From Escherichia coli (GTDB taxonomy: Bacteria; Pseudomonadota; Gammaproteobacteria; Enterobacterales; Enterobacteriaceae): a stretch of DNA of 64,000 bases. The stretch lies in assembly GCF_046105845.1 (NCBI RefSeq), contig NZ_CP151004.1, one strand, 5' to 3'. The notes under the pieces were generated by a model, which made no database searches, was not told where the DNA came from, and worked only from the letters and a program-made list of their open reading frames with translations. Below, piece by piece: positions 25,672 through 25,748 of this stretch. Position 1 is the first letter of the stretch; each line of letters begins with the position of its first letter. The position numbers and the translations under genes were made by a program.

Positions 25672-25685
25672 TTGCGCGAAATCAA
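25672..25685 (-). promoter_or_regulatory. FNR-like site (TTGCG-N4-ATCAA) in fdnG promoter
   Basis: Near-consensus FNR half-sites ~70 bp upstream of fdnG start; fdnG is known to be anaerobically induced. Confidence 0.45.
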
Positions 25686-25732
25686 AAAGAACACGTGTTT
25701 GCCACAAAATAATCCGCCTGCGCAAATTGACC

Positions 25733-25748
25733 TACCTCAATAGCGGTA
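25733..25748 (-). promoter_or_regulatory. NarL 7-2-7 heptamer pair (TACCTCA-AT-AGCGGTA) in fdnG upstream region
   Basis: Inverted NarL-like heptamers with 2-bp spacer, ~60 bp upstream of the FNR site. Confidence 0.4.

What the first reader, a model, noticed from the sequence alone, without database searches (positions are those of the whole stretch)
25672..25748. Candidate FNR site and NarL 7-2-7 heptamer pair upstream of fdnG
TTGCG-N4-ATCAA (FNR-like) lies ~70 bp upstream of the fdnG start, and TACCTCA-AT-AGCGGTA (inverted NarL-like heptamers, 2-bp spacer) lies ~60 bp further upstream. This matches the known anaerobic, nitrate-induced regulation of fdnGHI; the exact positions are my reading, not a verified annotation.
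Basis: partly seen in the sequence, partly recalled or inferred. Interest (0 to 1): 0.25.

Follow-up and report, generated by a model that had tools for sequence, protein, structure and literature searches.

The report
Known fdnG FNR and NarL sites
The two motifs are real and are the already-characterised oxygen (FNR) and nitrate (NarL) control sites of the E. coli formate dehydrogenase-N promoter, so the finding is correct but ordinary.

Summary
The window is E. coli. fdnG lies on the minus strand (ATG at 25607), divergent from yddG. TTGCGcgaaATCAA (25672-25685) is centred 71.5 nt upstream of the ATG. TACCTCA-at-AGCGGTA (25733-25748) is centred 62 bp further upstream.

The control region differs from K-12 MG1655 at 5 of 271 positions, none inside either motif. 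Both motifs are letter for letter the curated K-12 fdnG sites: FNR at -42.5 and the NarL 7-2-7 pair at -109/-100.

Motif statistics alone are weak. The FNR site scores 10.4 bits, below a published genome-wide threshold. The NarL pair ranks third in the window, with about one such match expected by chance.

Conservation is decisive. All 80 fdnG loci from other enterobacterial species keep the FNR site. In 62 of 75 non-Escherichia loci the best 7-2-7 match sits exactly 62 bp upstream of it.

- two flanking NarL heptamers (-124, -77);
- the extended -10 element;
- a second, stronger FNR-like site at -97.5 (25727-25740). It overlaps the -100 heptamer, occurs only in Escherichia, and lies nearest the published FNR ChIP-seq summit.

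Verdict: confirmed, already known, low interest.

The parts
22560..25607 (-). fdnG coding sequence (formate dehydrogenase-N alpha subunit). ATG at 25607; in-frame UGA (selenocysteine codon 196) at 25020-25022.
   Evidence: ORF pair 25020..25607 and 22560..24971. Translation MDVSRRQFFKICAGG...ARV*HGP. RefSeq annotation of the homologous place in E. coli genomes.
25614..25618 (-). Shine-Dalgarno AGAGG of fdnG
   Evidence: Read from the sequence. Invariant in the Escherichia alignment.
25636..25636 (-). Inferred fdnG transcription start (+1, A). It is not measured here; it is the position that reproduces the published numbering.
   Evidence: With +1 here the FNR site is at -42.5 and the heptamers at -77, -100, -109 and -124, as stated in PMC3349551. 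Coordinates from alignment A1.
25645..25653 (-). Extended -10 element TGtTAGTTT (hexamer TAGTTT at -14..-9, TG at -17/-16)
   Evidence: Highly conserved block in the gap-free footprint of 74 non-Escherichia upstream regions. Invariant in Escherichia. The simple promoter scan did not call it.
25672..25685 (-). Class II position, overlapping the -35 region.
   Evidence: Identical to the curated K-12 site. Scores 10.4 bits. Found once in each of 80 other loci, with the non-consensus CGCAA half kept in 76 of 82 sequences.
25710..25716 (+). NarL heptamer -77 (TAATCCG on the + strand, CGGATTA on the fdnG strand)
   Evidence: Curated K-12 heptamer. Position named in PMC3349551.
25727..25740 (-). Second FNR-like site at -97.5, TTGAGgtagGTCAA on the fdnG strand.
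   Evidence: Curated as an FNR site for b1474. It is the only fdnG site above threshold in PMC3688515 Table S6, and the ChIP-seq summit lies 10.5 bp from its centre. Scores 15.8 bits, rank 2 in the window. Present in 7 of 7 Escherichia sequences and absent (at most 1.7 bits) from 75 other loci.
25733..25748 (.). NarL 7-2-7 pair centred at -104.5. The -100 heptamer is TACCTCA (25733-25739, + strand). The -109 heptamer is TACCGCT (25742-25748, minus strand).
   Evidence: Curated pair 3a/3b for b1474. Scores 12.2 bits, rank 3. A 7-2-7 match lies exactly 62 bp from the FNR centre in 62 of 75 non-Escherichia loci.
25757..25763 (+). NarL heptamer -124 (CACCGCT here, CACCACT in K-12)
   Evidence: Curated K-12 heptamer AGTGGTG. 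The window carries C for T at -125, unlike the seven other Escherichia sequences aligned.
25839..26720 (+). Divergent neighbour yddG (aromatic amino acid exporter); marks the far end of the 231-bp control region
   Evidence: ORF. RefSeq annotation. Divergent neighbour in 73 of 80 loci.

Best explanation
This is the fdnGHI operon control region of E. coli, essentially identical to the one characterised in K-12.

Under anaerobiosis an FNR dimer binds the deliberately weak site TTGAT-N4-CGCAA centred at -42.5. That site overlaps the -35 region of a promoter with an extended -10 (TGtTAGTTT), so FNR acts as a class II activator. FNR alone gives little transcription. With nitrate, NarX-phosphorylated NarL binds the 7-2-7 inverted heptamer pair centred at -104.5, together with flanking heptamers at -124 and -77, and raises FNR-dependent initiation.

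Shown here:
- the motifs and their positions;
- their identity to the curated K-12 sites;
- conservation of both motifs and of their 62-bp spacing across Enterobacteriaceae.

Taken from the literature:
- FNR and NarL dependence of expression;
- FNR occupancy of this intergenic region in vivo;
- the -42.5 / -77 / -100 / -109 / -124 numbering.

Inferred:
- the exact +1 (25636) in this strain;
- how NarL bound about 105 bp upstream helps RNA polymerase. The route (contact through the alpha C-terminal domain, or DNA bending) is not established by anything I could read.
For: - Species and region: the 351-nt region matches 5413 of 5426 complete E. coli genomes at 95% identity or more, annotated yddG | fdnG. 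It has 5 differences from K-12 in 271 nt, none in either motif.
- Curated site lists for b1474 contain exactly these sequences.
- PMC3349551 gives FNR at -42.5 and NarL heptamers at -77, -100, -109 and -124. One choice of +1 reproduces all five.
- An FNR ChIP-seq peak lies in the yddG/fdnG intergenic region. fdnG is classed there as FNR-bound but activated only with nitrate/NarL.
- Footprint: the FNR site occurs once in each of 80 loci from other species at about 2 bits per column, and TGnTAGTTT is conserved 28.5 bp downstream of its centre.
- Spacing: the 7-2-7 has 3 or fewer mismatches at offset 62 in 84% of non-Escherichia loci, against 0.18% at other offsets.
- The motifs stay with fdnG in the 7 loci that lack yddG.
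- Within Escherichia only spacer bases and one heptamer position vary.
Against: - The FNR site is a poor matrix match: 10.4 bits, below the weakest of 62 ChIP-bound training sites and absent from the thresholded list.
- The published ChIP-seq summit (K-12 1545309, window about 25723) is 44.5 bp from this site and only 10.5 bp from the -97.5 site.
- Two 7-2-7-like matches elsewhere in the window, one inside pqqL and one apparently inside narU, score higher than the fdnG pair.
- The primary papers (Li & Stewart 1992; Li et al. 1994; Darwin et al. 1996; Wang & Gunsalus 2003) are not in the library. The mutational and footprinting evidence is therefore known to me only second-hand and from memory.
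- No transcription start was measured for this strain.
Confidence: 0.93

Rival explanations
1. FNR acts here mainly, or additionally, through the stronger upstream site at -97.5 (25727-25740). The reader's -42.5 site would be secondary. Alternatively the two FNR sites work as a tandem pair, with the upstream one modulating the downstream one and competing with NarL for the overlapping -100 heptamer.
For: - The -97.5 site scores 15.8 bits against 10.4 bits for the -42.5 site.
- It is the only fdnG site above threshold in PMC3688515 Table S6, and it is nearest the ChIP-seq summit.
- It is curated as an FNR site.
- It shares 7 bp with the NarL -100 heptamer.
- The 55-bp spacing resembles the 53 bp between the two yfiD FNR sites listed.
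Against: - It is absent from all 75 non-Escherichia loci (at most 1.7 bits), while the -42.5 site and the 7-2-7 are kept. It therefore cannot be the ancestral or essential activating site.
- A centre at -97.5 is not a class II position and has no promoter elements at the right distance.
- ChIP-seq resolution does not separate sites 55 bp apart.
- From memory only, not checked: the 1992 deletion and point-mutant study assigned anaerobic induction to -42.5.
Confidence: 0.2
2. The motifs serve the divergent yddG promoter rather than fdnG.
For: - The 7-2-7 and the -97.5 site lie about 100 bp upstream of the yddG ATG.
- They sit about 60-70 bp upstream of a good sigma-70-like promoter on the + strand: CTGACA, 18 nt, TATAAA with TG, at 25766-25795 (read).
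- yddG is the divergent neighbour in 73 of 80 loci.
Against: - The FNR site and the 7-2-7 persist in the 7 loci without yddG.
- Their spacing is fixed relative to the fdnG -10 element.
- PMC3688515 assigns the peak to fdnG.
- I found no report of nitrate or FNR control of yddG.
Confidence: 0.04
3. The motifs are chance matches with no function.
For: Consensus-level matches occur at background frequency in the window. About one NarL pair of this score is expected per 64 kb.
Against: - Identity to curated, experimentally derived K-12 sites.
- Invariance across 80 species at fixed spacing.
- ChIP-seq occupancy of the region.
Confidence: 0.01

Closest known systems
E. coli K-12 fdnGHI operon control region (Li & Stewart 1992; Li, Kustu & Stewart 1994; Darwin, Li & Stewart 1996; Wang & Gunsalus 2003)
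   Same: The same locus, with the same FNR site, the same 7-2-7 pair, the same -77 heptamer, the same -97.5 FNR-like site and the same -10 element.
   Different: There are five SNPs in 271 nt. One is in the -124 heptamer (CACCGCT against CACCACT). One is at -19 next to the extended -10 (G against A). The others are at -84 and -59/-58.
narGHJI control region (FNR class II site plus distant upstream NarL heptamers)
   Same: The same logic: anaerobic FNR activation from about -41.5/-42.5, boosted by NarL-P bound far upstream. PMC11841067 describes the expression pattern as essentially identical.
   Different: narG has no 7-2-7 pair. Its NarL sites are around -89 and -195, and IHF is needed (PMC4549865). 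fdnG uses a 7-2-7 at -104.5, and I know of no IHF requirement (own knowledge).
NarL/NarP 7-2-7 sites at nirB, nrfA, napF, yeaR and ogt
   Same: Inverted TACYYMT heptamers with a 2-bp spacer, bound by a NarL dimer (PMC2718512; PMC4549865; PMC7419079).
   Different: Those sites are centred between about -44 and -78. The fdnG pair is much further upstream at -104.5.
yfiD tandem FNR sites (own knowledge: -40.5 and -93.5, with the upstream site down-modulating)
   Same: Two FNR sites about 53-55 bp apart, the downstream one at a class II position (spacing seen).
   Different: At fdnG the upstream site overlaps a NarL heptamer and is confined to Escherichia. No function has been shown for it here.

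Membership tests
E. coli fdnG operon control region | Lies immediately upstream of fdnG (Tat signal, selenocysteine UGA), divergent from yddG | tested here: met
E. coli fdnG operon control region | Contains the curated FNR site TTGCGCGAAATCAA and the NarL heptamers TACCGCT / TGAGGTA / CGGATTA / AGTGGTG | tested here: met
   All are identical except the -124 heptamer, which has one SNP
E. coli fdnG operon control region | Sites at -42.5 (FNR) and at -77, -100, -109 and -124 (NarL) relative to the transcription start | tested here: met
   A single +1 (25636) reproduces all five published positions. The start itself was not measured.
E. coli fdnG operon control region | Anaerobic (FNR) and nitrate (NarL) induction of transcription | not testable with these tools
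   Literature only: PMC11841067 and PMC3688515
Class II FNR-activated promoter | TTGAT-N4-ATCAA-like inverted repeat centred near -41.5, overlapping the -35 region, with a recognisable -10 | tested here: met
   2 mismatches, both in the promoter-proximal half, scoring 10.4 bits. The centre is 28.5 bp upstream of the conserved TAGTTT hexamer with TG extension.
Class II FNR-activated promoter | Matrix score above a genome-wide prediction threshold | tested here: not met
   Below the weakest of 62 ChIP-bound sites and absent from Table S6 of PMC3688515. The weak CGCAA half is conserved in 76 of 82 sequences, so the weakness looks selected.
Class II FNR-activated promoter | FNR occupancy in vivo | tested here: inconclusive
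   There is a ChIP-seq peak in the intergenic region of K-12, but its summit is nearer the -97.5 site.
NarL 7-2-7 binding site | Two TACYYMT heptamers in inverted orientation with a 2-bp spacer | tested here: met
   2 mismatches to TACYYMTNNAKRRGTA. Pair score 12.2 bits, rank 3 in the window. Flagged as a 7-2-7 pair in the curated list.
NarL 7-2-7 binding site | Conserved at a fixed position in orthologous promoters | tested here: met
   The best match is exactly 62 bp from the FNR centre in 62 of 75 non-Escherichia loci.
NarL 7-2-7 binding site | Binding of phospho-NarL dimer | not testable with these tools
   Footprinting papers are cited but are not held in the library.

The most novel reading that the evidence does not exclude
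The Escherichia-only FNR site at -97.5 shares 7 bp with the NarL -100 heptamer. It may be a recently evolved switch. Without nitrate, FNR would sit there; this fits the ChIP-seq summit obtained in nitrate-free medium. From that position it would damp, or fail to help, the -42.5 FNR. With nitrate, NarL-P would displace it. That would give Escherichia a sharper nitrate dependence of fdnG than other enterobacteria have. No experiment I could read tests this.
Probability: 0.15. Interest if true: 0.35.

Novelty: already known. Interest (0 to 1): 0.08.

Why it matters
The finding adds nothing new for E. coli biology. It re-identifies from raw sequence one of the textbook examples of combined oxygen and nitrate control. 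Its value is as a calibration point. An unaided reader placed both sites to the base. The case also shows that matrix thresholds would have rejected a genuine, universally conserved FNR site while favouring a lineage-specific one. The comparative result has modest interest for promoter evolution: a fixed 62-bp FNR-to-NarL spacing across Enterobacteriaceae, a conserved weak CGCAA half-site, and an Escherichia-only -97.5 site.

Tried and rejected
- Simple sigma-70 promoter and terminator scan of 25500-25950. It found nothing.
- Attempts to read the primary papers: Wang & Gunsalus 2003 (PMC180993), Li & Stewart 1992 (PMC206306 and by DOI), Lin & Stewart 2010 (PMC3068693), Stewart & Bledsoe 2003 (PMC151514). 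None is held.
- A literature search on bare numbers (42.5, 97.5, 104.5) returned only irrelevant papers. A search for FNR ChIP-exo data mentioning fdnG found none.
- Searching the MotifAdjuster supplements for 'fdnG' failed. The files use b-numbers, and b1474 worked.
- Chance-match explanation: rejected on conservation and curated identity.
- yddG as the regulated gene: rejected as the main explanation because the motifs persist where yddG is absent.

Full report
**What is there.** The window is Escherichia coli. A 351-nt stretch around the finding matches 5413 of 5426 complete E. coli genomes at 95% identity or more, and is annotated everywhere as yddG | fdnG. fdnG is on the minus strand. An ORF of 195 codons starts at 25607 and runs into an in-frame UGA at 25020-25022, followed by an 803-codon ORF. 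The product begins MDVSRRQFFKICAGG (Tat signal) and reads ...ARV*HGP at the selenocysteine codon. yddG starts at 25839 on the + strand, so the intergenic region is 25608-25838, 231 bp.

**The observation.**
- TTGCG-cgaa-ATCAA occupies 25672-25685. On the fdnG strand it reads TTGAT-ttcg-CGCAA. Its centre is 71.5 nt upstream of the A of the ATG.
- TACCTCA-at-AGCGGTA occupies 25733-25748. Its centre is 62 bp further upstream.

**Is it more than chance?** On motif statistics alone, barely.
- The FNR consensus with up to 2 mismatches occurs 45 times in the window, against 38 +/- 6.6 expected.
- The 7-2-7 consensus with up to 2 mismatches occurs 6 times, against 3.1 +/- 1.9 expected.
- I built an FNR matrix from the 62 ChIP-seq-bound sites of Myers et al. 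2013, Table S6 (PMC3688515), leaving out the fdnG entry. That is rank 8 in the window and below the weakest training site at 11.7. It is also absent from that paper's thresholded genome-wide list.
- I built a NarL matrix from 68 curated heptamers (PMC2718512 Additional file 4), leaving fdnG out. The pair scores 12.2 bits, rank 3, with about one such pair expected per 64 kb.
- Two higher-scoring pairs lie elsewhere. One is inside pqqL. The other is, by projection from another strain's annotation, inside narU.

The evidence below shows that the criterion is wrong, not the site.

**Identity with the characterised K-12 region.** The 271 nt from the fdnG start into yddG differ from K-12 MG1655 at five positions, none in either motif. 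The curated RegulonDB/CoryneRegNet site lists reproduced in the MotifAdjuster supplements give the following for b1474 (fdnG):
- two FNR sites, TTGCGCGAAATCAA and TTGAGGTAGGTCAA;
- four NarL heptamers, AGTGGTG, TACCGCT, TGAGGTA and CGGATTA, with TACCGCT/TGAGGTA flagged as a 7-2-7 pair.

Babujee et al. 2012 (PMC3349551) state that the E. coli fdnG promoter has an FNR site at -42.5 and NarL heptamers at -77, -100, -109 and -124. Setting +1 at window 25636 reproduces all five numbers from the alignment coordinates.

FNR and NarXL control of fdnGHI is summarised in PMC11841067. Myers et al. found an FNR ChIP-seq peak in the yddG/fdnG intergenic region. They class fdnG as FNR-bound but activated only with nitrate/NarL.

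**Conservation.** I fetched 80 fdnG loci from species-representative genomes. They include Escherichia, Citrobacter, Salmonella arizonae/diarizonae, Enterobacter, Klebsiella, Raoultella, Kluyvera, Leclercia, Lelliottia, Kosakonia, Buttiauxella and others.
- *FNR site.* TTGAT-N5-[G/T]CAA occurs exactly once upstream of fdnG in every locus. 76 of 82 sequences keep the non-consensus CGCAA half. The weakness of the site is itself conserved, which fits a promoter designed to need a co-activator.
- *Footprint.* In a gap-free footprint of 74 unique non-Escherichia sequences anchored on this site, the FNR site is nearly invariant. TGnTAGTTT (an extended -10 at -17..-9) is strongly conserved. The TA...TA ends of the 7-2-7 at -112..-97 stand out.
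- *Spacing.* The best 7-2-7 match lies exactly 62 bp upstream of the FNR centre in 62 of 75 non-Escherichia loci. 84% have 3 or fewer mismatches at that offset, against 0.18% at other offsets.
- *Leader length.* The distance from the promoter to the ATG varies from 25 to 174 nt, so the conserved spacing is tied to the promoter and not to the gene start.
- *Neighbour.* yddG is the divergent neighbour in 73 of 80 loci. The seven loci without it still carry both motifs.
- *Within Escherichia.* Among eight sequences, including the most divergent E. coli found, only spacer bases and one heptamer position vary.

1. The -124 and -77 heptamers (25757-25763 and 25710-25716).
2. The extended -10 (25645-25653).
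3. A second FNR-like site, TTGAGgtagGTCAA, at 25727-25740 (-97.5). It overlaps the -100 NarL heptamer by 7 bp.

This third site is the better matrix match, at 15.8 bits and rank 2 in the window. It is the only fdnG site above threshold in Myers et al.. It lies 10.5 bp from the ChIP-seq summit, against 44.5 bp for the -42.5 site (K-12 1545309 corresponds to about window 25723). Yet it is confined to Escherichia: 15.5-15.8 bits in 7 of 7 Escherichia sequences and at most 1.7 bits in 75 other loci. It cannot be the ancestral activating site. Its role, if any, is open.

**Mechanism.** The following rests on established knowledge of FNR class II activation and of the NarX-NarL system, not on anything shown here. 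Anaerobic FNR binds at -42.5 and contacts RNA polymerase. Nitrate-activated NarL-P binds the 7-2-7 and its flanking heptamers and boosts initiation. How NarL bound at about -105 acts on the polymerase is not settled by anything I could read.

**Limits.** The primary footprinting and mutagenesis papers are not in the library. I rely on curated lists and later papers that cite them. The +1 is inferred, not measured.

Noticed in passing
window 25727-25740 (minus strand): A second, stronger FNR-like site, TTGAGGTAGGTCAA, at -97.5. It overlaps the NarL -100 heptamer. It is curated for K-12, lies nearest the published FNR ChIP-seq summit, and is present only in Escherichia among 82 sequences.
   Followed up: yes
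window 25625-25631 (minus strand): A perfect-consensus NarL heptamer, TACCCCT (9.1 bits, top 0.02% of heptamers), in the fdnG leader at about +6..+12. It is not in the curated list. It is present in the E. coli sequences but altered in E. albertii, and it is not conserved in other genera.
   Followed up: partly
L007-L076, positions -79..-64 relative to the inferred +1: Non-Escherichia genera share a very strongly conserved block, TGACTATTAAGGGG[GT]C. It resembles a second 7-2-7 centred at -71.5, which is 29 bp from the FNR centre. Escherichia has GGATTATTTTGTGGC there instead, containing the -77 heptamer.
   Followed up: partly
L077, L079, L080, L081: In four distant loci (Buttiauxella, Tenebrionibacter, two unnamed Enterobacteriaceae) the best 7-2-7 lies 39 bp rather than 62 bp upstream of the FNR centre. 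That difference is about two helical turns.
   Followed up: partly
L008-L013, L017-L021, L023, L025, L030, L031, L046, L059: The fdnG leader between the inferred +1 and the ATG is 25-33 nt in most species. It is 77-174 nt in Citrobacter, Salmonella arizonae/diarizonae and a few others, implying insertions downstream of the promoter. I did not examine what the inserted sequence is.
   Followed up: no
window 25766-25795 (+ strand): A good sigma-70-like promoter for yddG: CTGACA, 18 nt, TATAAA preceded by TG. The scan tool missed it because the -10 ends in A. The NarL 7-2-7 would be about 60 bp upstream of its start.
   Followed up: no
window 53366-53379: The best FNR matrix hit in the window, TTGACGTGCATCAA (15.9 bits), lies in the ortT(ydcX)/yncL intergenic region. 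It corresponds to a ChIP-seq-bound FNR site in Myers et al. Table S6.
   Followed up: yes
window 942-957 and 31513-31528: Two 7-2-7-like matches score higher than the genuine fdnG pair. One is inside pqqL. The other is, by projection from strain 118UI, inside narU. They are probably chance matches and show the limits of NarL matrix scans.
   Followed up: partly
window 25761 and 25655: The window carries two alleles not seen in the seven other Escherichia sequences aligned. One is C for T at -125 in the -124 NarL heptamer. The other is G for A at -19, just upstream of the extended -10. The G is the majority base in other genera.
   Followed up: partly
window 26979-28079 (+ strand): An intact 366-aa OmpC-family porin gene lies next to yddG. 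K-12 has only the yddL pseudogene fragment there.
   Followed up: no
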